Of a stretch of 64,000 bases of DNA, positions 2,188-61,540 are shown in pieces; within the stretch, counting starts at the first letter, position 1, and every line of letters starts with the position of its first letter. A model generated the notes under the pieces. It did no database searches. It was not told where the DNA came from and saw nothing but the letters and a program-made list of their open reading frames with translations. This DNA is from Shigella phage Ag3. The stretch is taken from the sequence record FJ373894, one strand, 5' to 3'. Made by a program: the position numbers and the translations under genes.

Positions 2188-2286
2188 GATGGCGTTCCTT
2201 ATGTGGATTGTCGACTTGCAGCTCGCTTGAGCCTCCTGACAGGGGTTAAAAGATAAAGGGCACGTGGTATTTAGTGCCCTTTGGCC

Positions 2287-7281: not shown

Positions 7282-7809
7282 TCAGATACCGATAAATTCA
7301 TCAAAAGATCCAACAACCTTCTTCACTGAGATCTTGTCATTCTCAATCAGGAAGTTGCTGTCGTTTTTGGCTGCTGTGGCCCAGTCATCGGCAAGTTCGT
7401 TACCTTCGTGCCCCGCATGACCCTTAACCCATTTTAGTTCAACTTCACAAATTGAACAAACGAGATCATAGATTCTGAACAGATCTTTGATGAGTTCAAC
7501 GTTCTTGTCTGGGAAACCCTGATACTCCCACTTCGCTCGCCATTCGGTGACGCTCTTGATGGTGTATTGACTGTCAGACCAAATTGTTGCCTTTGGTATT
7601 CTGCGCTCACCCTTTCCTGAGAATGCCCACAGCAGCTTCAATGCGTTGGTCACACCCAACAACTCGGCGATGTTGTTGGTGGACGGGGGAGGTAGGTGAC
7701 CGAAGAACACCTTCCATTGCATACCCGATATTGGCCTGATGACAAATGCCCATCCTGCGGCCTGGTTGGTCTTCGGGTTAGAACCCCCGTCAGAATAAAT
7801 TTCTATCAT
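7282..7809 (-). CDS. rnhA: ribonuclease HI (RnhA-type)
   Basis: Motifs IEIYSDGGS, NNIAEL, IWSDSQY, KWVKGHAGHEGNELADDWA match E. coli RNase HI; start moved to ATG at 7809 (ORF track extends to 7905). Confidence 0.85.
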   Translation of the reverse strand: MIEIYSDGGSNPKTNQAAGWAFVIRPISGMQWKVFFGHLPPPSTNNIAELLGVTNALKLLWAFSGKGERRIPKATIWSDSQYTIKSVTEWRAKWEYQGFPDKNVELIKDLFRIYDLVCSICEVELKWVKGHAGHEGNELADDWATAAKNDSNFLIENDKISVKKVVGSFDEFIGI

Positions 7810-24786: not shown

Positions 24787-24901
24787 GATGTAGTCTTCCT
24801 GTTTCAGTTCAAATGTGCGCCCCGTTTGCCAGGGCGCTTCGTTTAAGTGAGGTCAATAATACGTTGAAAAAAGTTATTGAAGAATGAAGTAAAGGGAATC
24901 T

Positions 24902-28988: not shown

Positions 28989-29069
28989 TTCAGCCTCGTG
29001 TAGAAGAATCATTTCAAATAGGCGGGGAACGCCCCCGCCCACACATTATAGCATCAGGCTGGAGATTGA

Positions 29070-29738
29070 TTACTCAATCTGTGCGCCGACGAAGTAATTG
29101 ATCGTCGCGTCGGATGATTGGAAGTTCACCATCTGCAGCTCAGCGCAGGCACGCAGAGTGTAGTTACCTTCGATCATCTTCAGGTTAGCAACGTCCAGTG
29201 GCATGACGAAGTCCGGCAGCGCAGTTTCACCCAGCTCAACGGTGTAGTTGTTGGAGTTGTCCAGGGTAGTGGTGGTTGCAACCAGGCGAGTTTTGCCACC
29301 CTGAGCAACCAGGCGCACAGTCTTGTGACCGAGGGTAGAACAGGCGCGGGTCAGTTCTTTCATCTTCTCTGGAGTGATGATCGCTTCAAAGTCGACAGAC
29401 GGCAGTTCAATGGTGTCAGCCGGAACAACAGTGAGTTCTTTAGCAGAACGCCAGAATTGCAGCTGAGAGCTTTCGCCTTTCAACAGGATGTAGTCCTGAT
29501 GGAATTCGGCTTTACCGCCTTTGAAGGAAGGCAGGCGCTGGATGGCCAGAAGTTTGGTCAGGTCCAGGATAGGGAACTCAAACGGGAAGTCTTCTTCGAT
29601 CTGTGCCACGGCGATAACAGTAGACGAATCGTTAATGCTGCGCAGCATCTTACCCGGTGTCAGAACGATAGATGGGTTGATGGTCTCAAAGTTGGCCAGC
29701 AACTGGAGTGTACGTTCGGAGAGAGTGATCTCTTGCAT
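29070..29738 (-). CDS. 45: sliding clamp gp45
   Basis: Length and N-terminal LLANFETINPSIVL alignable to T4 gp45 LLKNFATINSGIML; operon position. Confidence 0.85.
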   Translation of the reverse strand: MQEITLSERTLQLLANFETINPSIVLTPGKMLRSINDSSTVIAVAQIEEDFPFEFPILDLTKLLAIQRLPSFKGGKAEFHQDYILLKGESSQLQFWRSAKELTVVPADTIELPSVDFEAIITPEKMKELTRACSTLGHKTVRLVAQGGKTRLVATTTTLDNSNNYTVELGETALPDFVMPLDVANLKMIEGNYTLRACAELQMVNFQSSDATINYFVGAQIE

Positions 29739-30456: not shown

Positions 30457-31955
30457 TTACCCAGCGCCACCTTCATGAACTCCACAGGGTGGCGCTCTGT
30501 CAGGTAGAACTTGTATCGCTCATGAGAGTGCCTGATAGCGTGGTTCGTGCTGGCGTTGTACGACACATCATCCACTAAGTCCCATATCCACGCGACGTCC
30601 TTGGAGGAGTGCTGACGCATCAGACGACCCAATGTCTGTATGACGCGGATATATGACTTGCTCGGGTGCGCCAGTACAAGGTGGTGTAGCTTCTTGATTG
30701 ACACACCCTGTTGCATTGTCCCGTATGAAGCCAACAACGTGATATCCTCTCCATCCTCCATCGCTTTCTGTATGCGGCGGCGGTCTTCGATCTTCACTTC
30801 CCCGTTGATGACAAACACGTTGGGCTTGACTGCGCTCAGCATATCGTACACAACCATCATGTGGGCGTCAATACGCTCGAACATGATGGCCACGTTCCCT
30901 TTCAGATTCAGTGCCATCTTGGCGATCAGTTCGTTGCGGGACTGGTGTGTAATAAGGTATTCTATTTCCTTGGTATAATCCCCGTCCAGACCAACAGCAT
31001 CCGCCGGAGTGTGCTTTAGCTGAATCATCTTCACTTTGATGTCAGTGGCGTACCCGAGATTGATAAGGTCGCGAGCCGTGATGATCTTATGGTACGCCCC
31101 GAAGTGAGCCACCACCTGAAGCCCGGCAACTTTGGTGTTCGACAGCGTACCTGTAACCCCCAGGCGCTGGTCGGCGTAGATGCAGTTGTTGAGGATATAG
31201 GACAGTTTCTCAGACTTGGAGGTATGCACTTCATCCACCACGATGTCACCGAACTGGTGGAACCATTCCTTCGGCTGGTCTTGAATGCCCTGCCATGTAC
31301 TGATGACGATTGGTTTGCTGATTTCCTTTGTCGCGCCCTCAAAGATCAACTGAGTGTTGGCAACGGGCTTCCAATCGCTGCCGTGTGCGTACTCTTCAAA
31401 GTTGTCGTACAGCTGAGTGACCAGGTGAATCGACGGCACCACGATAAGCGTCTTCAGAGGACTTTCGAGAGCTTCTCTGCGCTGCCTGTAGTACCGCGCC
31501 ATGACATACAGAATAAAGGACTTACCAGCACTCGTAGCCAGTTCACAGACGCATCTGGTTTGACGCATAGCCTTGGCGATGGTGTCGTACTGATAGTCGC
31601 GGGTCTCAGCATCGATGTATTCGTGATTTTCGGTGCGGATCTTTGGATGGAGACTGTCGATGAAGTCATGGATTTCTTGATCTGGGATGTCCTGAATGTA
31701 CTTCAGAGCCGGATCCAGTTCAATGGTGTATTTGTTGTTCTTGCAGAACTTGAACACCTCAAACAGTAGGCCGATATCAATCAGACCGGATGACTTGGTG
31801 AACAAGCGAACAACCCCGTCCCATTTAGAGAAGGGGTTGGGAACGAAGTTCGGGTCTTCGAATTTGAAGTAGTCATTCAGCTCTTCCCTGATAGAAAGAT
31901 CTGCGATGCAACGCATGCGGACTTCGTTAACCTTAACAATCTGAATGTCTGCCAT
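30447..31955 (-). CDS. uvsW: UvsW helicase (SF2, DEVH box)
   Basis: Walker A TSAGKS, DEVH, TWQG...PKEWF, LHHLVLAH, QTLGRLMR align to T4 UvsW; 503 aa after start moved to 31955. Confidence 0.9.
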   Translation of the reverse strand: MADIQIVKVNEVRMRCIADLSIREELNDYFKFEDPNFVPNPFSKWDGVVRLFTKSSGLIDIGLLFEVFKFCKNNKYTIELDPALKYIQDIPDQEIHDFIDSLHPKIRTENHEYIDAETRDYQYDTIAKAMRQTRCVCELATSAGKSFILYVMARYYRQRREALESPLKTLIVVPSIHLVTQLYDNFEEYAHGSDWKPVANTQLIFEGATKEISKPIVISTWQGIQDQPKEWFHQFGDIVVDEVHTSKSEKLSYILNNCIYADQRLGVTGTLSNTKVAGLQVVAHFGAYHKIITARDLINLGYATDIKVKMIQLKHTPADAVGLDGDYTKEIEYLITHQSRNELIAKMALNLKGNVAIMFERIDAHMMVVYDMLSAVKPNVFVINGEVKIEDRRRIQKAMEDGEDITLLASYGTMQQGVSIKKLHHLVLAHPSKSYIRVIQTLGRLMRQHSSKDVAWIWDLVDDVSYNASTNHAIRHSHERYKFYLTERHPVEFMKVALGNHD

Positions 31956-31976
31956 ACAAAATCTCCCAAGATATAT

Positions 31977-31987
31977 GGGGTATTTAG
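31977..31987 (-). promoter_or_regulatory. late promoter motif CTAAATACCCC (uvsW)
   Basis: Minus-strand CGCTAAATACCCC about 25 nt upstream of uvsW ATG. Confidence 0.55.
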
Positions 31988-32730
31988 CGATCCGGCCAGA
32001 CTCCGTTCTGTTCTTTATCCATGCGATGGTACAGACGAACACGCTCAAACATCTTTGCCAGGATGTCATCGCGGTTGAACTCTATGATGGTTGGCGTCAA
32101 CGATGACTCGTTGGCAATCACATTGATGAGGCGGGTGATCTTGACACCGAACATCTGCTGGAACATAACAGAGTACAAGCACAGTTGGATACTGTAGTCC
32201 TCGATCATTCCCCGCGTCTTCATGGTGTTCGATGTCTTGAAGTCGATGATAGCAGGCTTACCCTCATAAACCCCAATAAGGTCCACTCGACCTGCGAGAC
32301 CAAGCACCTCGCTATATAACGGGATCTCCTGAGCATAGATCTTTGTCATCTTGTTCAGATAGGGGAACAGCTGCTTGAACATGAACATGTATTCGCCAGC
32401 CGCTTCCAACACTTCTTTCATTGGGCGGTTCTTCAAATACAGTTCACATGCAAGGTGCAGCTTCTCCCCTCGGTCAGCGCAACGCATGGTCTCAAGGTCG
32501 GCGGCCTCTGCACCCAGCTTCTCCCTCCAAGCCTCAAGCCATTCATGATCACCAGTACGCCCCAGCATCGTCGTTACAGACGTCAGCTTGACACCAGTTG
32601 GTGACACATAATGACGACCGTTCTCCGTCGTCACACACTCCAGTTCCTTATGAGGAAGTTCGTACTGCTGGAATGTGTAATGACGATTTTCGAAGTCGTT
32701 CAGCTTGCGCAGGGCTTGGAGAGATGCCAT
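31984..32730 (-). CDS. PD-(D/E)xK nuclease (RecB/Cas4-like)
   Basis: GRVDLIGV, IIDFKTS (D-x-K) and QLCLY motifs; start moved to 32730, overlapping uvsY stop. Confidence 0.6.
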   Translation of the reverse strand: MASLQALRKLNDFENRHYTFQQYELPHKELECVTTENGRHYVSPTGVKLTSVTTMLGRTGDHEWLEAWREKLGAEAADLETMRCADRGEKLHLACELYLKNRPMKEVLEAAGEYMFMFKQLFPYLNKMTKIYAQEIPLYSEVLGLAGRVDLIGVYEGKPAIIDFKTSNTMKTRGMIEDYSIQLCLYSVMFQQMFGVKITRLINVIANESSLTPTIIEFNRDDILAKMFERVRLYHRMDKEQNGVWPDR

Positions 32731-33182
32731 CAGGAACCATCCATATATTTTCGCCAATCGATGGCATTCTTCACTTCGTATCCCAGCTTGTTCAGGCGAT
32801 CCAAACAAGTCTCGATGAACTTGACTTTTGCTTTTTGTTCTTGTAACAGAACAGACAGTTCTACATAGTCATCGTCGGCTTTGACCCATGTGTCCAGGTC
32901 AGACTTCAGGGGGCGAACCTTCAGGGGGCGCTCTGCGTAGATGTTCGGGGGTAACTCCCCTGCGTAGTAGCGGCGCAGATAGAGATCGATCTGGCGGAAG
33001 CGCCCGTTGAGGAATTCAAGATAACGCCCCTCACGCAGATAATGCCGTTGTACGGCCATCCAAGAGCGCCCGATTTTCAGTGAGATCTGGTCAAGGTTCA
33101 TGTCTTCTGGGTCCACTGTAATCAGCGGCTCCAGTTCGTTCATGATGTCCTCGGTTGCCATTGTCTGTAGTTGTTCTTTCAT
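32730..33182 (-). CDS. uvsY: recombination mediator UvsY-like
   Basis: Size, position next to uvsW, and C-terminal pattern alignable to T4 UvsY. Confidence 0.6.
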   Translation of the reverse strand: MKEQLQTMATEDIMNELEPLITVDPEDMNLDQISLKIGRSWMAVQRHYLREGRYLEFLNGRFRQIDLYLRRYYAGELPPNIYAERPLKVRPLKSDLDTWVKADDDYVELSVLLQEQKAKVKFIETCLDRLNKLGYEVKNAIDWRKYMDGS

Positions 33183-33224
33183 AAAATATCCCAGCTTGTC
33201 AATGTCATAGAATTATACCGTATT

Positions 33225-33725
33225 TCATGGATTAGAATCAATCACCTTCCCACCAGATAGTGGGACCAGCTGCTGGAACTTGAACGTCACTGTCGTCACC
33301 AGCTGAGGTACAGCCGCATCCACGTCCACCAGTACGTTGTCCAGAGCAGTCGGACGGGCTTCCTCCAGCACGAGAGTGAGGCCAATCGGTCGGTTGAGGT
33401 TATCCAGTAATTCAATGGTAATGTCCTTGGAGACAGCCAAATCCTTGCCGACGTTGCTGGTGATCCATTGGTGGATCTGTAACCATGATTTCCAGTCCTC
33501 GTCTATAACGAAAGTAAATACGACGGGATCATAGGTTAAACGTTCTGAAGGGATAGAAACCAGTACGTCGCCAGGAGACGGACCATCGATGCCTTCAGAG
33601 TATACTCCTGGTATACTGAAGTCGTGGATGTTACGGGTTAGGAGTACAAGGTCTCCGATAGTCAGACGCCACTTATCGGACGCCGCGAAATTAGGGTTTT
33701 CGTTCTTGAATTGTACGTCGGACAT
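33225..33725 (-). CDS. tail-tube-family protein (gp19/gp48/gp54-like paralogue)
   Basis: IPSERLTYDPVVFTFVIDEDWKSWLQIHQW follows the gp19-type motif also present in this window's gp19. Confidence 0.45.
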   Translation of the reverse strand: MSDVQFKNENPNFAASDKWRLTIGDLVLLTRNIHDFSIPGVYSEGIDGPSPGDVLVSIPSERLTYDPVVFTFVIDEDWKSWLQIHQWITSNVGKDLAVSKDITIELLDNLNRPIGLTLVLEEARPTALDNVLVDVDAAVPQLVTTVTFKFQQLVPLSGGKVIDSNP

Positions 33726-33754
33726 AATAGCACCTTTTGCTGTGGAGATATTTT

Positions 33755-34405
33755 GTGACCCTGATGCGCGGGATCAGTAGATTGTTGTTGGCATGCGCGA
33801 TGCTCTTGCTTACGAGCTGTCGCATCTTTGTCACGCCAATAATTTCTGTTTCCGAACTCTGGAACCCAGAAGTACGCACCGTACCCGTGACGTTGTCGGC
33901 CAGTGTTCCTACTTGTAACAAGGGTATGCTGGACATCATCGTGCAAGAGTTCCAGACCTTTCAGAAGCTCGTGCCTTTGGGTTGCTTCGAGGAGAACACG
34001 AGCACCCTCAAGCCATACTGGAAGACCACGATTCCCCTCCTGCGTCGTGGCGATGAAGGGAAGATTCCATACCTATCAGCAAGTATTTATTACTCTCAGA
34101 ACAACAGCATCATCATCACTTTTAATCCATCATTCTACGCCAAGCTGAAGCAACACATGGTTGGGCGACTGAGTGAAACGTCGGATATAATCGTGACGTT
34201 CAAGATCATGAATGACTCAGACAAGCCAGTACGAATCGCAACTCAGGGTGTGTTTGTCAACAACGATGCTGTTGGGAATGAGATGAACATCTTCGAAGTT
34301 AACCCAGGGGGGACGATCTGGATTAGACTGAGTAATGTGGGTGTGAACTCCCTACTGTTGGATGGCATCGAACCAGTGGGAGTTCTTCCGGCGCGGGAGC
34401 GCTGA
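33755..34405 (+). CDS. putative lipoprotein (plus strand)
   Basis: GTG 33755 or ATG 33764 with GGAG RBS; MRGISRLLLACAMLLLTSC signal with lipobox. Confidence 0.5.
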   Translation: MTLMRGISRLLLACAMLLLTSCRIFVTPIISVSELWNPEVRTVPVTLSASVPTCNKGMLDIIVQEFQTFQKLVPLGCFEENTSTLKPYWKTTIPLLRRGDEGKIPYLSASIYYSQNNSIIITFNPSFYAKLKQHMVGRLSETSDIIVTFKIMNDSDKPVRIATQGVFVNNDAVGNEMNIFEVNPGGTIWIRLSNVGVNSLLLDGIEPVGVLPARER

Positions 34406-34406
34406 A

Positions 34407-35135
34407 TTACTTCAGCGCGCTCTTCAGATTATCAGAACCGATGTTGTTGATAACGCCACCAGCACACAGGTCTTTAGCCCACTCAGACAGTACATTGGCG
34501 AACGAGAAGTTCAGACACTTGCTGACCATGTCTTGGATGTGGGCTAACTCTGAGGCAATACCATTGGCGATATCCTGACCGATTTGCGCCACCTGAGCAA
34601 TAGCATCGTTGATGTATCCGGTAACTTCGGCGGCCAGCGCCTGGATCTTTGCCAGGCCAGCGCTCACACCCTGCGCAACTAACTCAGCCAGTTCGGCCAT
34701 CTTGGCAGTAACAGTGCTGAGAGCGCCCTCCATAGCCCCGATCCACTGGCGCCCAAGAGTCTGTATGACGCCGAAGGCATTGTTGATCAGATCACAGTTG
34801 GTCGGCTCGCGCTCGATTGACTTCAGGCCAGATTTGTACGACACGGAAGTCCCGATGCGGGAATACGCTTCGTTCACAGTCTGATCACCATAGTTGTTCA
34901 GTGTGGTGAGGCTGGTGTCGGCAGAGGTGAACATCGTGTTCGTTTCATTGAGTTTGGCTGTGGTTAGACCACCTGCCGTCAGAGCGCCCTGGATTTGCGT
35001 ATTTCCGGTGTTTGCCAGTGCAGCTGTAGTCGCCTTGCCGCTGGTGATTAAACCCTGAGACGTGCTGCTGAGGGACGGGAGAGGATTGTTAAATGCGTTA
35101 CCCTGCTCAAGGGCGTCATAGATCTGTGCGTTCAT
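34407..35135 (-). CDS. late protein, probable virion/structural (Ala/Thr/Gln-rich)
   Basis: Start at 35135 (MNAQIYD...); CTAAATACCCCC late motif about 25 nt upstream. Confidence 0.5.
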   Translation of the reverse strand: MNAQIYDALEQGNAFNNPLPSLSSTSQGLITSGKATTAALANTGNTQIQGALTAGGLTTAKLNETNTMFTSADTSLTTLNNYGDQTVNEAYSRIGTSVSYKSGLKSIEREPTNCDLINNAFGVIQTLGRQWIGAMEGALSTVTAKMAELAELVAQGVSAGLAKIQALAAEVTGYINDAIAQVAQIGQDIANGIASELAHIQDMVSKCLNFSFANVLSEWAKDLCAGGVINNIGSDNLKSALK

Positions 35136-35156
35136 AGAAAATACCCCCATGGATGA

Positions 35157-35169
35157 TGGGGGTATTTAG
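35157..35169 (-). promoter_or_regulatory. late promoter motif CTAAATACCCCC inside a hairpin
   Basis: Upstream of late protein starting 35135; motif is one arm of palindrome AAATACCCCCAT-GGATG-ATGGGGGTATTT. Confidence 0.5.
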
Positions 35170-35382
35170 GTGATCATGGCAGTTTGTAAACGAAGTTGGA
35201 CCAGAACTTCCGAGCGAACTTCTTGGCATAGACCTTCCAGTCGGCGTATTCGCCCTCCTTCAGGTCGTTGTAGGTCTCGAACCCTACTGCTCCCAGGAAG
35301 TACGCCGTGAAGATATAGCAGAACAGATTGACGACAAACATGATGTATCTCCGCTGTGTGAACTCAAATTATTTATGGTATG

Positions 35383-35805
35383 TTACAAAAGGCGCTTGGT
35401 CTTCGGCTTGCCCATCAGTGTGATGTCCACAGGGAGGCCAGCTTTCTTGCAACGGTTGATCATGTCCAGGGTGCCAGTGGACGAACCATCCCACATCGCA
35501 ATCGGATACACTTCCAGCTTGGTCTGCCTGACGAGATCCAATGCCTTGTCTAACATGTCCTGATTGCGTTTGTTGCCCATCCCTTTCCCATACTTTTCAT
35601 AATAGCTCGGAGGGATTGGCATAGGAGTGATATGAACATAATTGATTTCAGCCCAATCACGGCAAATCGTGTCGACACCCGTGGCCTCACCCTCGATCAA
35701 CGTATAGACTTCATGAGGATCGAGGAGTTCGTCCAGCTTGGCGAATACCTTATCCCGCTCGGTGATTGAGCGGGAACCTGTAACGAGTACGATATATTTC
35801 TTCAT
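35383..35805 (-). CDS. SLOG/DUF2493-like Rossmann-fold protein
   Basis: MKKYIVLVTGSRS N-terminal motif; start moved to 35805. Confidence 0.5.
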   Translation of the reverse strand: MKKYIVLVTGSRSITERDKVFAKLDELLDPHEVYTLIEGEATGVDTICRDWAEINYVHITPMPIPPSYYEKYGKGMGNKRNQDMLDKALDLVRQTKLEVYPIAMWDGSSTGTLDMINRCKKAGLPVDITLMGKPKTKRLL

Positions 35806-35810
35806 GGAAC

Positions 35811-36131
35811 TCACAGCGCCCCAAGATTGCCGATGACATACAGGGAGCACAGAGGAGTGCCTGACGAACGGGGTTCGATTGTCATCCCGCTCAGGCGGAT
35901 CAGTTCCAGTAAGCCGTCAGTGGTTTGATACGCGCGTGTCGAACCGTTCGGGCGATAAAGCTCCAGCTCGGTTCTTCCTTCCTTTAATGCATTACGGATA
36001 CGAGCGAACACACTGTGGTCGCCGAACTTCTGTTTCAGAAGGTCCAGCTTGGTGACCAGTCGACGACGCGATTTGCGCGCACGAGGGTTCTCTTTTACGA
36101 CCGCTTCTAAAATTGGGATGCTGTTAGCCAT
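35811..36131 (-). CDS. hypothetical protein
   Basis: 106-codon ORF. Confidence 0.45.
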   Translation of the reverse strand: MANSIPILEAVVKENPRARKSRRRLVTKLDLLKQKFGDHSVFARIRNALKEGRTELELYRPNGSTRAYQTTDGLLELIRLSGMTIEPRSSGTPLCSLYVIGNLGAL

Positions 36132-36190
36132 GATAAAGTCCTCTATTTGTAGGGGATAGGGTATGCGGTTAACATACCCCGTTCAAAGGT

Positions 36191-36472
36191 TTAGAACAAA
36201 TGCTCGCCTTCCACATGGTATGCTAACACGCCGTCAGAACATTCAAAATACATGTTATCATATTCCCACAGAGCGGTGATTTCTTCACCCTGGCAAACTA
36301 CCGAAAACTTCGGCTGGCTGGCCTTAACTGGAAATTTTTCAGGGGAAGAGATTGGGGTGAATTTGGCATTTCTGACGGCCATACCAACAAATTGCTGCAA
36401 TGTTACTTTGTAACGAGAGTGGGTGATAGTACCAGCATTCAGAGCTTCGATCAATTGCGCTTTAGTTGTCAT
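36191..36472 (-). CDS. hypothetical protein
   Basis: Start after GGAACTATATC; early promoter 36522-36550 upstream. Confidence 0.5.
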   Translation of the reverse strand: MTTKAQLIEALNAGTITHSRYKVTLQQFVGMAVRNAKFTPISSPEKFPVKASQPKFSVVCQGEEITALWEYDNMYFECSDGVLAYHVEGEHLF

Positions 36473-36498
36473 GATATAGTTCCTTCATTTCAGAGTCA

Positions 36499-36527
36499 GT
36501 GTCGTACTGCTTATGGAATGAAGTATA
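36499..36527. repeat. 29-bp direct repeat (copy 2) of early-promoter cassette
   Basis: Identical to 853-881. Confidence 0.7.
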
Positions 36528-36557
36528 CGGGGTTTATTGAAGAAGTAAACCCCGTAT
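36522..36557 (-). promoter_or_regulatory. early promoter fused to stem-loop (PeSL-like): -35 GTTTAC, 17 bp, -10 TATACT
   Basis: Perfect hairpin ATACGGGGTTTA/TAAACCCCGTAT contains -35; upstream of gene starting 36472. Confidence 0.6.
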
Positions 36558-36574
36558 TCAACTTTTTATTGAAT

Positions 36575-36811
36575 TTATTTAAAACGGTCAGGAAGGGTGT
36601 CGTGCAGTTCAGCTGACAGCACCAAGAACTTACCATCCGTCGTTGGGAAGCAATAGTCTTTATTGATGTGACGCAAGTGTTCAGCTACAGCTGCCACGCA
36701 GTCATCTGTCACGTCGGTCTTCTCACCAACCCACATGCTGGTTTTGGTGTTCAGCCTACCCTGGAATATAGTACCAGTCAGAGGGCTTGCGCCGATCTTT
36801 TTGATAATCAT
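36575..36811 (-). CDS. hypothetical protein
   Basis: 78-codon ORF. Confidence 0.4.
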   Translation of the reverse strand: MIIKKIGASPLTGTIFQGRLNTKTSMWVGEKTDVTDDCVAAVAEHLRHINKDYCFPTTDGKFLVLSAELHDTLPDRFK

Positions 36812-36819
36812 GTTTGACC

Positions 36820-37260
36820 TCAGTTAATGCGGAACAGATGTGGATAACCACCAGGATGACCCTGACCCGTAACGAACACGTCGAACTTCGAACCCTTGAT
36901 CAGGCCAGGCAGATTGCCAGAGTCCAGCAGTTCTCGGATCTGATCCATCGCCAGCATCCAGTTCTTAGCAGGTTCAGCTTCAGCCTCTCCACGATTGAGG
37001 ACGAGTTCACCTTCAGAATAATACTTCCCGCTGTCCTTCATGTAGTACAGCTTGATATGGATATACTGAGGGGATGGGACCAAACGCCAGCCGTCATCAA
37101 TCAGATCCTGGCGATCATTATCCAGGGACTGGTAATCGATCTCACCAGACGCCAGACCATAGCTGCGCATGTAGCGGAACTTCTCAACACGGTCTTTCAC
37201 GTCAGAGATGAAGAACTCCTTCGTGGCAGGACTGATGAAAATGTATTTCTCTTTTGACAT
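36820..37260 (-). CDS. hypothetical protein
   Basis: Start after AGGATCTATATC variant. Confidence 0.5.
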   Translation of the reverse strand: MSKEKYIFISPATKEFFISDVKDRVEKFRYMRSYGLASGEIDYQSLDNDRQDLIDDGWRLVPSPQYIHIKLYYMKDSGKYYSEGELVLNRGEAEAEPAKNWMLAMDQIRELLDSGNLPGLIKGSKFDVFVTGQGHPGGYPHLFRIN

Positions 37261-37272
37261 GATATAGATCCT

Positions 37273-37500
37273 TCAGTTCAAAATGGGATGTTCGTCGATA
37301 TCGGACTGCGTTGCAATCTCCCAGCGGACGATGTTCTCGGTTGTGATGAAATCACGGTTCAGGTGAGAGGCTGGCACATACACCATCGTGTCGACCATGA
37401 AGTAACGCTGCTCGTTGTTCCAGGAGTCAACGTAAGCCTCAATGAGGCATACTTCGATCACTTCGCCTTTCGGCTTCTTCACAGTCTTTTTCAGGTACAT
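37273..37500 (-). CDS. hypothetical protein
   Basis: Start moved to 37500 (GAGG RBS); track N-terminus lies in a terminator hairpin. Confidence 0.4.
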   Translation of the reverse strand: MYLKKTVKKPKGEVIEVCLIEAYVDSWNNEQRYFMVDTMVYVPASHLNRDFITTENIVRWEIATQSDIDEHPILN

Positions 37501-37560
37501 GACGCAGCCCTCGGATAGTAGACGGGGCAATAATACCTCTCGCCCCGTTATTGAAAACTG

Positions 37561-37761
37561 TTATCCTTCTTGTTCTTCCCAACCCCATTCATCTTCCCAA
37601 GACTGGCGAGGGGTCTTGCCCGCTTCGTAATCATCACGCCATGCGTCGGCGTCGGCGGCTGAACCACCCTGGCTTTTCGCGACTTTGCACAATACGTCGT
37701 GCCACTCACGGAAGGTGGAGTTGGCGACTGTGGTGTTTACAGAATCTTCTTTCAGGCTCAT
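37561..37761 (-). CDS. hypothetical acidic Trp-rich protein
   Basis: Start moved to 37761 (GAGGAA RBS). Confidence 0.4.
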   Translation of the reverse strand: MSLKEDSVNTTVANSTFREWHDVLCKVAKSQGGSAADADAWRDDYEAGKTPRQSWEDEWGWEEQEG

Positions 37762-37820
37762 TGTGATTTCCTCGATTAATAGAGAGGGTAATAATACCCT
37801 CATGCAATCTTTGAAACTCT

Positions 37821-38153
37821 TTATCCAGCCAAAGTCATATTCTGGGAACCAACCCCATCTTCACATTCTGGATGACATGAAGTGCCCAGTTTTTCATGGA
37901 TTACATCCAGATGGGTAAAGATAGCGTCGATGATATCGTCTTGGTCAGACTGGACGTCAATCACCAAGCCGACCAGACCAGGCGCGGCCATTTCTTTATC
38001 TTCACCTTTCTGAGTGGTTGGGTAATCACCGTCGAGTTGGATACGGATGTTTCTGATATTGGTGAGGAGGTTGCACAAACGCTCTTTATGAGAACGAGCA
38101 TTGACCAGAATTTGGGACACGGATTGTGTTGGTGATACGAGGTTACTTGACAT
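37821..38153 (-). CDS. hypothetical protein
   Basis: Start moved to 38153 (AGGAG RBS). Confidence 0.4.
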   Translation of the reverse strand: MSSNLVSPTQSVSQILVNARSHKERLCNLLTNIRNIRIQLDGDYPTTQKGEDKEMAAPGLVGLVIDVQSDQDDIIDAIFTHLDVIHEKLGTSCHPECEDGVGSQNMTLAG

Positions 38154-49999: not shown

Positions 50000-50650
50000 T
50001 TATTCTCCAAAGTCGATCTTCATCTTGTCTACTGCAAGCCCCTTCTCAAGCACATCCGCCAAAGCATTGTCGGTCTGCAGAGAAGAATCCTTGTACACGT
50101 CCGGTTCGTTCTCTTCGTCCAAGATGGACAGACGTTTGTCGATATCGTCGATCTCCGGAACGCCTGTATCGAAGTTTTCGTTGCCGTACTGGAACAACGT
50201 GCACGGCAGAGAGAACGTATACCATTTGCCAAATTGCATGAAGTCTTCATCGTTGTTTGGGTTGTTGACCTTGAAGATCTTGTTCGCCAGGGGCAGGTAG
50301 ATCAGGTCACCTTCCTGAGGTTGTTGTTCAATCCCAACACCGTTGCCTATCACCTCAGCAAAGCGGCGGCGCGAGATAGAGAACGTCACCTCATCCTGTA
50401 GATTAATACCCCCGAACTTCTCCCACATCTGGGTGTTGAAGCCCTGGTAATCCTGCATGTAAACTTCGATGTCGAACGCTTGGTCGAATCGATGGTTTGC
50501 ATCGTTGGTGACTGGGAATTTTTCAACGATGGAACGTGGTATATACTTGACGTCTATCCCACGCAACTGAATCATTTCTTGCACCAAATCTTCAATCAGC
50601 TTCTGTGTGCCTTGGTGATTGGTGGCGTTGAAATATTTTGAAGTGGCCAT
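50000..50650 (-). CDS. 14: neck protein gp14-like
   Basis: Position; late motif CTAAATACC upstream. Confidence 0.6.
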   Translation of the reverse strand: MATSKYFNATNHQGTQKLIEDLVQEMIQLRGIDVKYIPRSIVEKFPVTNDANHRFDQAFDIEVYMQDYQGFNTQMWEKFGGINLQDEVTFSISRRRFAEVIGNGVGIEQQPQEGDLIYLPLANKIFKVNNPNNDEDFMQFGKWYTFSLPCTLFQYGNENFDTGVPEIDDIDKRLSILDEENEPDVYKDSSLQTDNALADVLEKGLAVDKMKIDFGE

Positions 50651-50673
50651 ATCGATACCCTCAATTTTGAAGG

Positions 50674-50682
50674 TATTTAGTC
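50674..50682 (-). promoter_or_regulatory. late promoter motif CGACTAAATACC (gp14)
   Basis: About 25 nt upstream of gp14 ATG. Confidence 0.5.
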
Positions 50683-57185: not shown

Positions 57186-57194
57186 TATTTAGTA
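57186..57194 (-). promoter_or_regulatory. late promoter motif ACTAAATATC (large fibre gene)
   Basis: About 35 nt upstream of ATG 57151, downstream of terminator 57219-57243. Confidence 0.5.
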
Positions 57195-59235: not shown

Positions 59236-61512
59236 TTAGTTCTGAATCAACACGGCATTGTACGATAGTGGAAAATCACCAGAAGTTCCTGAACGGGTAA
59301 ACTGGTAGTTAGACCCAGAAACACCAGCAGCGACAGACGCCAACTGACTCGCTGAAGTGGCTGTCACCGCAATGCTACGGCCAGATACCAGGCTAACTAT
59401 ACCGACAGCGGCAGTAACGGACCCAACGCCATTCGGGATAGTAACTAACCCGACTTGCTTGTCCGGGTGTGTCGGGGAGTCATAATGGTAGAACTTACAC
59501 GAAGCTCCACCCACAAAAACCTGCCCGTAAAAGTAACAATTTTTTGTTGTTACGCTAGAGCCACCAGTTTGGTTATCTAAAACAGTAATTCCCAGTGGCT
59601 TATTTGCCAGGAATGTACAATTTTCCGCAGTTACTCCAACTACAGAGTTCACTAAAAGGTCTCCCTGCTGTGCTGCATCAATGTCATTGTTCTGGAAAAG
59701 GCAATTCACAAGCTTTGGTCTTGCCGGTACTAGGCCACCTTCTTTAATAATCTCAAGACCAAAGTAACGGCTGTCAGAGAATTTAACACCTGTAGCCATA
59801 AACTCATTACAAGAACCCTGAATTACCACACAAGATTTATTACCGCTGCGGTTGCTGCTGTAATACCCGTTTGTTAATTGTAAATACTGAGTATTAGTCG
59901 CTCTCAGTGCAATACCGGTGGCAAGGTCTGACATGACGTCAGTCAGCCATATCCACCGGCAGTTAACTATCTCTATAGCTGCGGTGCCTAAAGTGTTATC
60001 ACCACAGGCGTAGAATCTATCGCCTAGCAGCTCAATACCCTCTATGTTCGTGCTCACATGAGAGCTGTTTTCGGTTATGAACAGCCCGCATTTACACCCA
60101 TTGAATGTATTCTGGTTAAATCGAGTGTTAATCTGTCCCCCACCAAGTACAACACCGTATGTACTGGCAGCGAATCTGTTGAACCTGAAATCAAGCTCTC
60201 CAGCCCCATAACCGCCGGGTGCATCTACGCAATATTTAAGGAAGGCAAAAGAACAATTTTCAACTGTAACCAAAGGCGCTTCGATTCGTATACCAGTTGA
60301 TGTGGATTCTACGGTAACTGACTGAATCGTAAAGTCCGCAAGTCTTGCAAATTCATGAGTAACCTTGAAACATGTATCTCCGTCATTTTCAGGGCAGAAT
60401 GTCGTGTTGAGCTTGCCCGCTCCGATAAGATTGGCGGGGCTATCAATAACAATATCTTTTACGAAATATTTCTCCGTTGCCGCCGGGACAAATACTGTAT
60501 TAGACGCTGTAGAGGCGAGCTTAGCTGCGGCCAATGCGGCATTGATGGCCTGTGACCATGTATTAGACCCAGTTTTATAGTCGGCGGCATTGAAATAGAC
60601 GGCATGGCGGGCGTTAATTATAGCCTGCTCTACAGTAACACCAGAAGAAGTCCCGACTAACGTAGCCCCGGAGCTTGCCGCTAAATCGTTTCTTAAATTT
60701 GGGTCCGTTTGTGGAGTCCAGTCGGCAACAGCAACAGGGTTGGTACTTGCTGCGATTACATGCGGCAATGCACCACTCCAGGAATACCAGGTCTTACTTA
60801 CCGGGTCATATACCACTTTGTCACGGTCATTAATTGTTAAAGTGCCGCCTACGCTAAAAGTTAAACCAGAGTCAGCGTAGCCATTTTCAATAGCCCAGTT
60901 GAGTTTTAACTTGATCAAATCATCACCAACAGAGTCTAAACTCTGTTGCACCGTTTGCCCCGACGTAGTTCCAACAAGGCTTGCCCCATTATCAGAAGCC
61001 AACGCCAGGTAATTTTGTTTTACGGACATTTCTGACACGACCCAAACTCCAGCCGCAGGCGAACCTGTGAGGAAACTCACAACTCCTGTTGTGCTGTTGT
61101 AGCTGTAGTTGACACCAGGAACCTGGAACTTCCCGTCAACATACAGAGACTGTACGCCGTAGGTTGTGAAGTCTGGCGTGAAAGTAGTCTCGTTACCGTC
61201 CGCCTGAAACTTGTAGATTCTGATCCCGTTTTCATAATCTTCTGGGGACAGGATCTTGTCAAACAGACAGTACACTACATCATCAGCCTCTAGTGCTCGA
61301 CCGAGGTTGACTGTGTTGCCATCGATTTCATAGTTGTCGACAGGAACCTGAACACCACCATTGATAGTGATGAAGCCCGTAACGGGATAGAACGGGAGGG
61401 AGATAAACGTCTCTCCACCCGTTGCGGTATAAGTGTATGGAATCTGGTGTGGTGCTGTTACAACCGCTCCAAAGATGCTCTCGACGTTTCTGGTCATTTG
61501 AAGATACCCCAT
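59236..61512 (-). CDS. tail-spike protein (distinct N-terminal domain)
   Basis: 758 aa; Gly/Asn/Thr-rich beta-helix-like body; late motif CGCTAAATACCCC upstream. Confidence 0.7.
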   Translation of the reverse strand: MGYLQMTRNVESIFGAVVTAPHQIPYTYTATGGETFISLPFYPVTGFITINGGVQVPVDNYEIDGNTVNLGRALEADDVVYCLFDKILSPEDYENGIRIYKFQADGNETTFTPDFTTYGVQSLYVDGKFQVPGVNYSYNSTTGVVSFLTGSPAAGVWVVSEMSVKQNYLALASDNGASLVGTTSGQTVQQSLDSVGDDLIKLKLNWAIENGYADSGLTFSVGGTLTINDRDKVVYDPVSKTWYSWSGALPHVIAASTNPVAVADWTPQTDPNLRNDLAASSGATLVGTSSGVTVEQAIINARHAVYFNAADYKTGSNTWSQAINAALAAAKLASTASNTVFVPAATEKYFVKDIVIDSPANLIGAGKLNTTFCPENDGDTCFKVTHEFARLADFTIQSVTVESTSTGIRIEAPLVTVENCSFAFLKYCVDAPGGYGAGELDFRFNRFAASTYGVVLGGGQINTRFNQNTFNGCKCGLFITENSSHVSTNIEGIELLGDRFYACGDNTLGTAAIEIVNCRWIWLTDVMSDLATGIALRATNTQYLQLTNGYYSSNRSGNKSCVVIQGSCNEFMATGVKFSDSRYFGLEIIKEGGLVPARPKLVNCLFQNNDIDAAQQGDLLVNSVVGVTAENCTFLANKPLGITVLDNQTGGSSVTTKNCYFYGQVFVGGASCKFYHYDSPTHPDKQVGLVTIPNGVGSVTAAVGIVSLVSGRSIAVTATSASQLASVAAGVSGSNYQFTRSGTSGDFPLSYNAVLIQN

Positions 61513-61529
61513 AGAGGATTTGCCAATAT

Positions 61530-61540
61530 GGGGTATTTAG
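61530..61540 (-). promoter_or_regulatory. late promoter motif CGCTAAATACCCC (tail spike)
   Basis: About 20 nt upstream of ATG 61512; same 18-mer as the uvsW copy. Confidence 0.5.

What the first reader, a model, noticed from the sequence alone, without database searches (positions are those of the whole stretch)
33225..35169. Plus-strand lipoprotein gene between a tail-tube paralogue and a hairpin-embedded late promoter
A plus-strand lipoprotein gene (33755..34405) sits between two minus-strand late genes, a moron-like arrangement. The late protein at 34407..35135 has its CTAAATACCCCC motif forming one arm of a perfect 12-bp palindrome, which could make promoter access depend on DNA or RNA structure.
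Basis: seen in the sequence. Interest (0 to 1): 0.45.

Follow-up and report, generated by a model that had tools for sequence, protein, structure and literature searches.

The report
Late promoter inside an RBS-hiding hairpin
In this Ackermannviridae (ViI-like) phage, the hairpin around a late promoter is a conserved copy of the phage T4 device that stops late genes being translated from early read-through RNA, and the opposite-strand lipoprotein gene is a core gene of the family, not a recent add-on.

Summary
The window is an Agtrevirus (98.5-98.7% identical to Salmonella phages SKML-39 and P46FS4). 33755-34405(+) encodes a DUF7424 lipoprotein with an invariant lipobox. It lies between the T4 gp3-like tail-tube terminator (33225-33725, -) and a DUF7217 virion protein (34407-35135, -). 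The CTAAATACCCCC late motif overlaps one arm of a perfect 12-bp inverted repeat (35139-35150 / 35156-35167).

The hairpin's 3' arm carries the Shine-Dalgarno sequence (GGGGGT, 8 nt before the ATG). It is conserved in seven genera, with compensatory changes. It is one of 8-10 such promoter/SD hairpins per genome, including those of the endolysin and RuvC-like resolvase genes. My scan also recovers T4 genes e and 49, the experimentally established cases. Read-through RNA would fold (-20.4 kcal/mol). RNA from the predicted late start would not.

The lipoprotein gene is not a moron. It occurs wherever the gp3-like gene occurs in enterobacterial members and has the same GC content as its neighbours. 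Two virion proteomes do not list it. It is probably driven by a TAAATA motif embedded in the gp3 gene, and gp3 by a reciprocal motif inside the lipoprotein gene. The lipoprotein's function is unknown.

The parts
33225..33725 (-). T4 gp3-like tail-tube terminator / tail completion gene (166 aa)
   Evidence: phrog_45 at 9.7e-33. PDB 9mkb 'gp3, tube terminator protein' at E 5.5e-7. Annotated as tail completion protein in relatives. Detected in LIMEstone1 virions as ORF127 (PMC3296691) and in Sajous1 virions as gp168 (PMC10892097).
33515..33520 (+). TAAATA (context GTAAATACGA) embedded antisense in the gp3 gene, 235 nt upstream of the lipoprotein start. Candidate late-type promoter of the lipoprotein gene.
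   Evidence: It lies in the longest nucleotide-invariant run of the gp3 gene (10 nt; the next longest is 5) across 19 sequences from 4 genera. Only 1% of 6-nt windows in the gene are invariant. Serratia phage 3M keeps it at the same place. Vibrio phage K476 has CCTAAATACC in the intergenic region pointing at the lipoprotein gene. Promoter activity is inferred, not shown.
33726..33754 (.). 29-bp divergent intergenic region carrying both ribosome-binding sites (GGAG for the lipoprotein; AAGGTG on the other strand for gp3)
   Evidence: TAGCACC(T)TTTGCTGTGGAGA is almost invariant across the 4 genera aligned.
33755..34405 (+). DUF7424 lipoprotein gene (216 aa; signal peptide aa 1-21; lipobox LTSC, with the Cys22 codon at 33818-33820)
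   Evidence: Pfam PF24199 at 8e-60. Lipobox and three invariant Cys. Labelled 'putative lipoprotein' in several records. Not listed in two virion proteomes. AlphaFold model has pLDDT 67 and no informative fold match.
34084..34089 (-). TAAATA (context TAATAAATACTTG on the - strand) embedded antisense in the lipoprotein gene, about 360 nt upstream of the gp3 start. Candidate late-type promoter for gp3.
   Evidence: Codons AGT ATT TAy are invariant in 21 sequences, whereas only 13 of 99 amino-acid-invariant codons are codon-invariant. The motif lies in the longest invariant run of the gene. Erwinia phage Ea2809 keeps it at the same codons. Serratia 3M has AATAAATACT elsewhere in the gene. Aeromonas TSW001 has CTCTAAATAC in the intergenic region pointing at gp3.
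34399..34418 (.). Hairpin spanning the two convergent stop codons (GCGCTGAA / TTCAGCGC)
   Evidence: 8 bp, perfect (I7). Arms differ but stay complementary in Agtrevirus and Taipeivirus-like loci; no clear equivalent in Kuttervirus. There is no T-tract in this window, so it is not a canonical terminator here.
34407..35135 (-). DUF7217 virion structural protein gene (242 aa)
   Evidence: PF23854 at 1.5e-98 and phrog_2114. LIMEstone1 ORF129 'unknown structural protein', 25 kDa, found by mass spectrometry. Sajous1 gp166 found by mass spectrometry.
35139..35167 (-). 12-bp perfect hairpin. The 5' arm (35167-35156) lies in the late-promoter motif. The 3' arm (35150-35139) carries the Shine-Dalgarno sequence GGGGGT (35148-35143), 8 nt before the ATG at 35135.
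   Evidence: MFE -20.4 kcal/mol, z -3.5. Conserved in 7 genera with compensatory inner-stem changes.
35158..35169 (-). CTAAATACCCCC, the late-promoter motif known for ViI-like phages
   Evidence: The motif CTAAATAcCcc is reported for the group in PMC7283392. Homologues of gp55, gp33 and gp45 are annotated in SKML-39.
35174..35341 (-). 55-aa gene, last gene of the upstream co-directional block. Its stop codon ends 4 nt before the late motif.
   Evidence: phrog_4845; annotation in relatives.
37530..37555 (-). TTCAAT-N14-TATTAT, the group-specific early-promoter motif. It is the likely source of transcripts that read towards the hairpin.
   Evidence: 4 matches in the window against 0.2 expected by chance. 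The motif is named in PMC7283392. No canonical - strand terminator lies between it and 35170.

Best explanation
The hairpin is an RNA element of the T4 'late promoter inside an RBS-sequestering hairpin' type.

Proposed mechanism:
- Transcripts that start upstream, at the early-type promoter near 37555, run through about seven small genes. They contain both arms, fold into a hairpin of about -20 kcal/mol, and bury the Shine-Dalgarno sequence of the DUF7217 virion-protein gene. That gene therefore stays untranslated early. The U-rich tail may also terminate part of these transcripts.
- Late RNA polymerase (the gp55 homologue) uses TAAATA as a -10 element. It would start about 6 nt downstream, near the A at 35157 in the loop. 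Late mRNA then lacks the 5' arm and has a free ribosome-binding site.
- The C-run of the family's late consensus (cCcc) is, on this reading, a built-in anti-Shine-Dalgarno arm.

The lipoprotein gene is an ancient core gene of the family. It encodes a lipoprotein that is not listed in the virion proteomes and is probably sorted to the outer membrane. It appears to be transcribed from a late-type TAAATA embedded in the gp3 gene. gp3 appears to be transcribed from a reciprocal TAAATA embedded in the lipoprotein gene, plus read-through from 35169. The two genes would therefore give overlapping antisense late transcripts.

The role of the lipoprotein is unknown. My best guess, with low confidence, is envelope protection or superinfection exclusion.

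Shown here: the sequence anatomy, conservation, covariation, the genome-wide class of such hairpins, and recovery of the T4 controls. Inferred: the transcription start sites, read-through, translational repression, the timing of expression, and the location of the lipoprotein.
For: 1. Anatomy: perfect 12-bp stem, with the SD GGGGGT in the 3' arm 8 nt from the ATG.
2. Folding: the read-through RNA folds at -20.4 kcal/mol (z -3.5, 0 of 200 shuffles as good). RNA from the predicted +1 folds at -4.6 kcal/mol (z about 0).
3. Conservation at this locus: Agtrevirus, Limestonevirus, Taipeivirus-like, Kuttervirus, Miltonvirus and Nezavisimistyvirus all keep the hairpin. Inner-stem changes are compensatory: CAT/ATG becomes TGA/TCA or CAC/GTG.
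4. Genome-wide class: a stem of at least 8 bp that starts inside TAAATA and ends just before a start codon occurs at 8 of 48 sites in SKML-39 and 10 of 68 sites in Sajous1. For 14 control hexamers of the same composition the rate is 0-4%.
5. Site-specific pairing: a permutation test gives z -6.3 for promoter-arm versus SD-arm pairing.
6. Orthologous hairpins upstream of the endolysin and RuvC-like resolvase genes include a compensatory indel between the two subfamilies.
7. Stems allowing G-U pairs outnumber stems allowing A-C mismatches, which points to the sense-strand RNA.
8. Positive control: the same scan recovers T4 genes e and 49, and in a relaxed mode soc and I-TevII. Their mechanism is experimentally established (PMC3014915; PMC2988022).
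9. An upstream early-promoter motif exists.
10. Lipoprotein: the proteomes, and the embedded conserved TAAATA blocks.
Against: - No transcription start site, transcript or protein data exist for any Ackermannviridae phage in the library searched. The predicted +1 rests on T4 spacing (PMC2988020).
- The core stem AAATACCCCC/GGGGGTATTT is invariant in four genera, so covariation at this locus rests on two divergent genera.
- At least two hairpin-bearing genes have no co-directional gene directly upstream (gene starts 11795 and 150490 in SKML-39). Read-through is less obvious there.
- The overall folding energy upstream of TAAATA-preceded genes is not lower than for other genes (p = 0.45).
- The U-rich tail fits a terminator equally well.
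- The embedded TAAATA blocks could be conserved for another reason.
- The lipoprotein has no fold or family match that indicates a function.
Confidence: 0.6

Rival explanations
1. The hairpin is primarily an intrinsic terminator that ends the upstream early operon (the 55-aa gene and those before it). Its overlap with the late promoter is just compact packing.
For: The stop codon of the upstream gene ends 4 nt before the motif. A 7-bp GC-rich core (CCCCCAT/ATGGGGG) is followed by TATTTTCT. This U-rich tail is conserved in all genera at this locus. Elsewhere in the genome CTAAATA sits in the loop of clear terminators.
Against: The terminator scan did not call this hairpin. Most of the other 8-10 promoter/SD hairpins per genome lack a U-tract (for example GGGGTATCTTCAAATG and GAGGGTATCGATATG). 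Some T-richness follows automatically from being complementary to TAAATA. A terminator does not explain why the 3' arm always carries the SD and ends 0-6 nt before the start codon. The two roles are not exclusive.
Confidence: 0.2
2. This is the first reader's idea: the palindrome extrudes as a DNA cruciform, or otherwise alters duplex structure, so that access to or melting of the late promoter depends on supercoiling.
For: A perfect 12-bp inverted repeat with a 5-nt loop overlaps the -10 element. The segment downstream of it is GC-rich, unlike the AT-rich equivalent in T4 (PMC2988020).
Against: In sister sites the loops reach 13-23 nt and the stems contain G-T pairs. These are poor cruciforms but acceptable RNA hairpins. 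The 3' arm is tied to the SD and the start codon, which a DNA-level role would not need. T4 genes e and 49 have the same architecture and are known to act through RNA.
Confidence: 0.05
3. The lipoprotein gene is a moron-type accessory gene: an early, independently expressed exclusion factor like T5 Llp or Cor.
For: It has the opposite orientation to its neighbours. It is a lipoprotein not listed in virion proteomes. Exclusion lipoproteins are known in other phages (my own knowledge). Bacterial homologues sit in variable envelope-related neighbourhoods (MliC, T6SS VgrG/VasX).
Against: It is a core gene in every enterobacterial Ackermannviridae record that has the gp3 gene, and it is present in Vibrio and Aeromonas members. 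Its GC and GC3 equal those of its neighbours. The best sigma-70 or group early-motif match has 4 mismatches. A conserved late-type TAAATA lies upstream. It shows no similarity to any protein outside DUF7424. An exclusion function itself is not excluded; only the moron and early-gene parts are disfavoured.
Confidence: 0.12
4. The palindrome is a by-product of two independent constraints, a C-rich promoter extension and a G-rich SD, with no selection on pairing.
For: The core arms are invariant in four genera, so they show no covariation there.
Against: An SD does not need the TATTT part of the 3' arm. Compensatory changes occur in Miltonvirus and Nezavisimistyvirus. Paralogous sites have different arms that still pair. 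A compensatory indel occurs at the resolvase gene.
Confidence: 0.04

Closest known systems
T4 gene e (lysozyme) and gene 49 (endonuclease VII) leader hairpins; also soc, I-TevI/II/III, segB and Aeh1 mobE
   Same: The late -10 element (TAAATA) lies in the 5' arm. The SD and start codon lie in the 3' arm. The gene sits downstream of earlier transcription units. The T4 e sequence TATAAATACCTTC...GGAGGTATTATG is nearly the same design as the Ackermannviridae endolysin leader TTTAAATACCTTCGCA...TGCGGAGGTATTTTCTTATG. The mechanism is reviewed in PMC3014915 and PMC2988022.
   Different: The phage family is different (Ackermannviridae, not Straboviridae). The regulated gene here is a DUF7217 virion protein. 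The device is more frequent (8-10 per genome) and is partly written into the family's promoter consensus (cCcc). No experimental data exist here.
Intrinsic (rho-independent) terminators
   Same: A GC-rich stem followed by a U-rich tail, placed directly after a stop codon.
   Different: The full stem consumes most of the U-tract. The 3' arm doubles as the next gene's SD. Sister hairpins lack U-tracts.
Phage exclusion lipoproteins (T5 Llp, Cor of phi80/N15) and o-spanins (Rz1)
   Same: A phage-encoded protein with a lipobox that is not part of the virion.
   Different: No sequence or fold similarity. The mature protein is far larger (195 aa, beta-rich, probably with a disulfide) than an o-spanin, and it is not next to an i-spanin gene; SKML-39 has a separate Rz-like spanin. 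The comparison with Llp and Cor rests on my own knowledge and is a lead only.
Pfam DUF7424 (PF24199)
   Same: Full-length match at 8e-60. Bacterial members (Gilliamella, Morganella, Haemophilus, Halomonas) share the lipobox and two further Cys.
   Different: The family has no assigned function. The bacterial members are stand-alone chromosomal genes, not in prophages.

Membership tests
T4-type late-promoter/RBS-sequestering leader hairpin | A late -10 element (TATAAATA-like) directly upstream of the gene, in a phage that has gp55, gp33 and gp45 homologues | tested here: met
   CTAAATACCCCC at 35169-35158. The motif is known for the group. A late sigma factor, a late transcription regulator and a sliding clamp are annotated in SKML-39.
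T4-type late-promoter/RBS-sequestering leader hairpin | The 3' arm contains the Shine-Dalgarno sequence and/or the start codon | tested here: met
   GGGGGT lies in the 3' arm, 8 nt before the ATG. The same holds at 8 SKML-39 sites and 10 Sajous1 sites.
T4-type late-promoter/RBS-sequestering leader hairpin | The late transcript starts inside or after the 5' arm, so it cannot form the hairpin | not testable with these tools
   Inferred from T4 spacing only (the TATA box lies about one helical turn upstream of +1; PMC2988020). RNA from the predicted +1 folds at -4.6 kcal/mol, against -20.4 for the long RNA.
T4-type late-promoter/RBS-sequestering leader hairpin | The gene lies downstream of an early or middle transcription unit on the same strand | tested here: met
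   In silico only. An early-type motif lies at 37555-37530 (-). The genes between are co-directional. No canonical - strand terminator intervenes.
T4-type late-promoter/RBS-sequestering leader hairpin | The structure is maintained by selection (covariation) | tested here: met
   Compensatory changes in two genera at this locus. Permutation test z -6.3. Control hexamers. The pair counts come from sites chosen because they have stems, so they are descriptive only.
T4-type late-promoter/RBS-sequestering leader hairpin | The same detection method recovers the experimentally proven T4 cases | tested here: met
   T4 genes e and 49 found under the strict criteria; soc and I-TevII under relaxed criteria.
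T4-type late-promoter/RBS-sequestering leader hairpin | Long transcripts are translationally repressed | not testable with these tools
   Needs reporter fusions or ribosome toeprinting.
Bacterial lipoprotein (Lgt/LspA substrate) | Signal peptide with a positive n-region and a hydrophobic h-region, and a lipobox [LVI][ASTVI][GAS]C | tested here: met
   MTLMRGISR-LLLACAMLLL-TSC. The Cys is invariant across 18 diverse homologues and in the bacterial members.
Bacterial lipoprotein (Lgt/LspA substrate) | Acylation and signal peptidase II cleavage; outer-membrane sorting | not testable with these tools
   The +2 residue is Arg or Lys, not Asp, which predicts Lol export by the E. coli rule. This is inference.
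Moron (accessory gene cassette) | Patchy distribution among close relatives | tested here: not met
   292 records. Host counts are identical to those of the gp3 gene for Salmonella (164), Klebsiella (44), Escherichia (29), Dickeya (19), Serratia (10), Shigella (4), Erwinia (4), Enterobacter (3) and Aeromonas (3).
Moron (accessory gene cassette) | Its own promoter and terminator, and atypical composition | tested here: not met
   No sigma-70 or early-motif match better than 4 mismatches. GC is 0.499 against 0.503 for the window.
Intrinsic terminator | A GC-rich stem followed directly by a U-tract | tested here: inconclusive
   Not called by the scan. If only the 7-bp GC core is counted, the tail is TATTTTCT, with 6 of 8 T.
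Known phage exclusion lipoproteins and spanins | Sequence or fold similarity, or spanin gene architecture | tested here: not met

The most novel reading that the evidence does not exclude
Two readings go beyond the main explanation.

1. In Ackermannviridae the late-promoter consensus has itself evolved to contain an anti-Shine-Dalgarno arm (the 'cCcc' of CTAAATAcCcc). Many late promoters would then double as translational insulators against early read-through.

2. The gp3 and lipoprotein genes are driven by face-to-face late promoters, each buried in the other's coding sequence. This would give about 575 nt of obligatory antisense overlap, which could couple or limit the expression of the two genes.
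Probability: 0.3. Interest if true: 0.55.

Novelty: new member of a known kind. Interest (0 to 1): 0.4.

Why it matters
- It gives a functional reading for the unexplained C-rich extension of the ViI-like late-promoter motif.
- It shows that the T4 'better late than early' translational gate is older and more widely used than the T-even cases. It guards the same kinds of gene here, the endolysin and the Holliday-junction resolvase.
- It has practical value for engineering Ackermannviridae phages used in biocontrol. Moving or fusing late genes without their leader hairpins could unleash early expression of toxic proteins.
- It marks a core, family-wide lipoprotein of unknown role, with chromosomal bacterial relatives, as a target for experiment.
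- It corrects the idea that this gene is a dispensable moron.

Tried and rejected
- Rfam scan of 31000-38000: nothing relevant.
- PADLOC: no hit. NCBIfam: nothing for the lipoprotein and only far-sub-threshold noise for DUF7217.
- PDB sequence searches for the lipoprotein and for DUF7217: noise only.
- Sigma-70 scan and early-motif scan upstream of the lipoprotein gene: only a 4-mismatch match at 33703.
- A claim that TAAATA is depleted on the + strand: dropped. There are 3 sites against 4.7 expected under a first-order Markov model.
- A test of whether the regions upstream of TAAATA-preceded genes fold more stably overall than those of other genes: not significant, p = 0.45.
- Mapping the Sajous1 'gp214-217 operon' of PMC10892097 to this locus: a false lead. 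Those genes lie at 151.6-155.3 kb of that genome.
- Literature searches for an Ackermannviridae transcriptome: none found.
- Genomic context of the bacterial DUF7424 homologues: no consistent partner gene.
Full report
**Identity of the window.** A 2.4-kb query around the finding matches 43 phage records. It is 98.5-98.7% identical to Salmonella phages P46FS4 and SKML-39 and to Shigella phages MK-13, Gloob and ChubbyThor (genus Agtrevirus, family Ackermannviridae). It is 82-89% identical to Limestonevirus and related phages. The annotated gene order in relatives is UvsY, gp3-like tail completion protein, a + strand hypothetical protein or 'lipoprotein', a 'structural protein', a 55-aa protein, and a block of small genes.

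- Lipoprotein gene: 33755-34405 (+) matches Pfam DUF7424 over its full length (8e-60). The GTG at 33755 lies 7 nt after GGAG and is conserved in all aligned genera. The in-frame ATG at 33764 is lost in some Kuttervirus loci. The N-terminus is a classic lipoprotein signal (MTLMRGISR / LLLACAMLLL / TSC). Cys22 is invariant in 18 diverse homologues, including Vibrio and Aeromonas phages. The +2 residue is Arg or Lys, and two more Cys are invariant.
- Left neighbour: 33225-33725 (-) is the homologue of T4 gp3, the tail-tube terminator (PDB 9mkb, E 5.5e-7). 'Tail-tube paralogue' is therefore imprecise.
- Right neighbour: 34407-35135 (-) is DUF7217. Its orthologues were found by mass spectrometry in LIMEstone1 virions (ORF129, PMC3296691) and in Sajous1 virions (gp166, PMC10892097). 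gp3 was found in both as well. The lipoprotein orthologue (ORF128, gp167) is listed in neither.
- Palindrome: it is exact, with arms at 35139-35150 and 35156-35167, 12 nt, 100% complementary, and a 5-nt loop. It is one of two such repeats in 64 kb.

**What the hairpin is.** On the - strand the sequence reads CTAAATACCCCCAT-catcc-ATGGGGGTATTT-tct-ATG. The 3' arm therefore holds GGGGGT 8 nt before the start codon, which is the position of a Shine-Dalgarno sequence. The 5' arm is the distal part of the late motif. CTAAATAcCcc and TTCAAT[N14]TATAAT are the two regulatory motifs already described for ViI-like phages (PMC7283392).

T4 late promoters are an 8-bp TATA box about one helical turn upstream of the start site (PMC2988020). 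With that spacing, transcription would start at about the A at 35157, in the loop. Folded as RNA, a transcript arriving from upstream forms the hairpin at -20.4 kcal/mol (z -3.5; no shuffle out of 200 folds as well). RNA beginning at 35157 folds at -4.6 kcal/mol, no better than shuffles.

An instance of the group's early-promoter motif lies at 37555-37530 on the same strand (4 matches in the window against 0.2 expected by chance). Only co-directional small genes and no canonical - strand terminator lie between it and the hairpin. Read-through from an early unit into the DUF7217 gene is therefore plausible.

**Conservation at this locus.** Upstream of the DUF7217 gene the hairpin is present in all 18 IMG/VR loci retrieved. 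It is also present in Serratia phage 3M and Erwinia phage Ea2809.

| Group | Sequence |
|---|---|
| Agtrevirus | AAATACCCCCAT / ATGGGGGTATTT |
| Taipeivirus-like | AAATACCCCCA / TGGGGGTATTT |
| Kuttervirus | (T)ATAAATACCCCCA-aaat-TGGGGGTATTT |
| Miltonvirus | AAATACCCTCAC / GTGGGGGTATTT |
| Nezavisimistyvirus | AAATACCCCTGA / TCAGGGGTATTT |

Folding energies range from -11 to -21 kcal/mol. The core is invariant, but the inner stem changes on both sides in the two most divergent genera.

**A genome-wide class.** I assembled the full SKML-39 and Sajous1 (Kuttervirus) genomes.

- Of 27 annotated SKML-39 genes with TAAATA 15-50 nt upstream, 9 have a hairpin of -10 kcal/mol or better that pairs the promoter region with the SD region.
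- A permutation test swapped SD regions among these genes. The native promoter/SD pairs are far more complementary than swapped pairs (sum -194 against -117 +/- 12 kcal/mol, z -6.3).
- An annotation-free scan looked for a stem of at least 8 bp that starts inside the hexamer and ends just before the start codon of an ORF of at least 45 aa. It finds 8 of 48 TAAATA sites in SKML-39 and 10 of 68 in Sajous1. For 14 control hexamers of the same composition the rate is 0-4%.
- The genes concerned include tail fibre or tailspike genes, a neck/head-closure gene, DUF7217, the endolysin and the RuvC-like resolvase.
- Orthologous sites in the two subfamilies keep the hairpin. The resolvase leader shows a compensatory indel (TAGCCCAT/ATGGGCTA against TACCCAT/ATGGGTA).
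- Stems that allow G-U pairs are more numerous and longer than stems that allow A-C mismatches. This is expected if the sense-strand RNA, not the DNA, is the selected structure.
- The pair counts describe the diversity of the arms. They come from sites chosen because they have stems, so they are not an independent test.

**Comparison with what is known.** The architecture is that of T4 genes e, soc, 49 and I-TevI. In those genes, early or middle transcripts sequester the SD and AUG in a helix. Transcripts from a late promoter placed in the 5' strand of that helix lack the inhibitory half and are translated (PMC3014915 section 29; PMC2988022 section 12).

Run on the first 100 kb of T4, my strict scan recovers gene e (TATAAATACCTTC...TTAGGAGGTATTATG) and gene 49. 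A relaxed version recovers soc and I-TevII. The Ackermannviridae endolysin leader is almost the same design as the T4 e leader.

I therefore file the hairpin as a new member of this known kind. Two features appear new. The device is used more often here (8-10 per 157-160 kb). The C-run of the family's promoter consensus can be read as a built-in anti-SD arm, whereas T4 late promoters are AT-rich just downstream of the TATA box. I found no paper in the library searched that describes this for Ackermannviridae.

**Rival readings of the hairpin.**

- Terminator: this role is plausible at this particular site. The upstream stop codon is 4 nt away, and a 7-bp GC core is followed by TATTTTCT, which is conserved. 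The scan did not call it, and most sister hairpins have no U-tract. I treat termination as a possible second function.
- DNA cruciform gating the promoter: disfavoured by loops of up to 23 nt, by the G-T pairs, and by the tie to the SD.
- Pure coincidence of promoter and SD constraints: disfavoured by the compensatory changes.

**The lipoprotein gene is not a moron.**

- tblastn finds it in 292 phage records. The gp3-like gene is found in 355. Host counts are identical for every enterobacterial host and for Aeromonas. Only the divergent Vibrio phages fall below detection (9 of 69).
- The head-to-head arrangement with gp3 is kept even in Vibrio K476 and Aeromonas TSW001.
- GC and GC3 match the neighbours.
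- A whole-library profile search finds 82 relatives. They include stand-alone chromosomal lipoprotein genes in Gilliamella, Morganella, Haemophilus and Halomonas with the same lipobox and Cys pattern. Their neighbourhoods vary (a TonB-dependent receptor; MliC and flagellar genes; T6SS VgrG/VasX; autotransporters) and are not prophages.
- The AlphaFold model is of moderate quality (pLDDT 67) and matches nothing informative.

The function remains unknown. A role facing the envelope, such as exclusion or protection, is a guess.

**How the divergent pair is probably transcribed.** The 29-bp intergenic region holds only the two ribosome-binding sites. The gp3 gene contains one antisense TAAATA (window + strand 33515-33520, GTAAATACGA), and the lipoprotein gene contains one (- strand 34089-34084, TAATAAATACT).

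In each gene this motif sits in the longest nucleotide-invariant run across four genera: 10 nt and 8 nt, in genes where only about 1% of 6-nt windows are invariant.

More distant genera keep a motif of this kind:

- at the same place (Serratia 3M in gp3; Erwinia Ea2809 in the lipoprotein gene);
- elsewhere in the same gene; or
- in the intergenic region (Vibrio CCTAAATACC pointing at the lipoprotein gene; Aeromonas CTCTAAATAC pointing at gp3).

I infer face-to-face late-type promoters, each embedded in the other's gene. This makes the lipoprotein a probable late gene and implies about 575 nt of antisense overlap. gp3 may also be served by read-through from 35169, because the stop-stop hairpin at 34399-34418 has no U-tract in this window. 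None of this has been tested experimentally.

**Verdict.** The hairpin is a well-supported but unproven member of a known T4 regulatory class. The lipoprotein is an ordinary-looking core gene of unknown function, with an interesting promoter arrangement.

Noticed in passing
window 34399-34418: A hairpin spans the two convergent stop codons of the lipoprotein and DUF7217 genes. Its arms differ between Agtrevirus (GCGCTGAA/TTCAGCGC, GCACTGA/TCAGTGC) and Taipeivirus-like loci (GTGCCCTGA/TCAGGGCAT, followed there by TTTTTCAG) but stay complementary. There is no clear equivalent in Kuttervirus.
   Followed up: partly
window about 2254-2283 (- strand); SKML-39 67105-67140: CTAAATA sits in the loop of clear terminator hairpins (AAGGGCAC-TAAATACCAC-GTGCCCTTT-ATCTTTT and ATCCCCC-TAAATAC-AGGGGGAT-TTCTTTTCT). 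This is a second kind of promoter/hairpin overlap.
   Followed up: no
window 61504-61536, about 50650-50680, and weaker sites near 57192, 40880 and 31987 (- strand): Other late motifs in the window whose ATAcccc part pairs with the SD region of the next gene (tail fibre, head closure and others).
   Followed up: yes
window 36525-36557: The second perfect 12-nt inverted repeat of the window (ATACGGGGTTTA/TAAACCCCGTAT) lies in an intergenic gap of the small-gene block. It has a T-tail only on the + strand, so it may stop antisense transcription.
   Followed up: no
window 7431-7456, 24856-24881, 29045-29070, 37530-37555 (all - strand): Four matches with at most 1 mismatch to the group's early-promoter motif TTCAAT-N14-TATAAT, against 0.2 expected by chance.
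   Followed up: partly
window 34407-35135 and 35383-35850: PHROG 289 ('GTP-binding domain') is matched by two separate proteins: DUF7217 at profile positions 259-500, and the SLOG/YAcAr protein at positions 7-146. The profile looks like a fusion, and the RefSeq label 'GTP-binding domain' on neighbouring genes is doubtful.
   Followed up: no
SKML-39 about 142575-142608 (- strand); Sajous1 72122: A hairpin-embedded CTAAATA precedes an ATG that is not annotated as a gene start in SKML-39. The equivalent site in Sajous1 opens a 149-aa ORF.
   Followed up: no
L033, L037-L041 (bacterial loci): DUF7424 lipoprotein genes occur as stand-alone chromosomal genes in Gilliamella, Morganella, Haemophilus and Halomonas. 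They lie next to a TonB-dependent receptor, MliC, T6SS VgrG/VasX or autotransporters. The phage family therefore shares this lipoprotein with Gammaproteobacteria.
   Followed up: partly
window 35150-35148 (- strand): An in-frame ATG lies inside the 3' arm, 5 codons upstream of the real start, so ORF callers extend the protein to 247 aa. The same happens at the tail-fibre gene. The Pfam model and the Kuttervirus sequences support the downstream ATG.
   Followed up: yes
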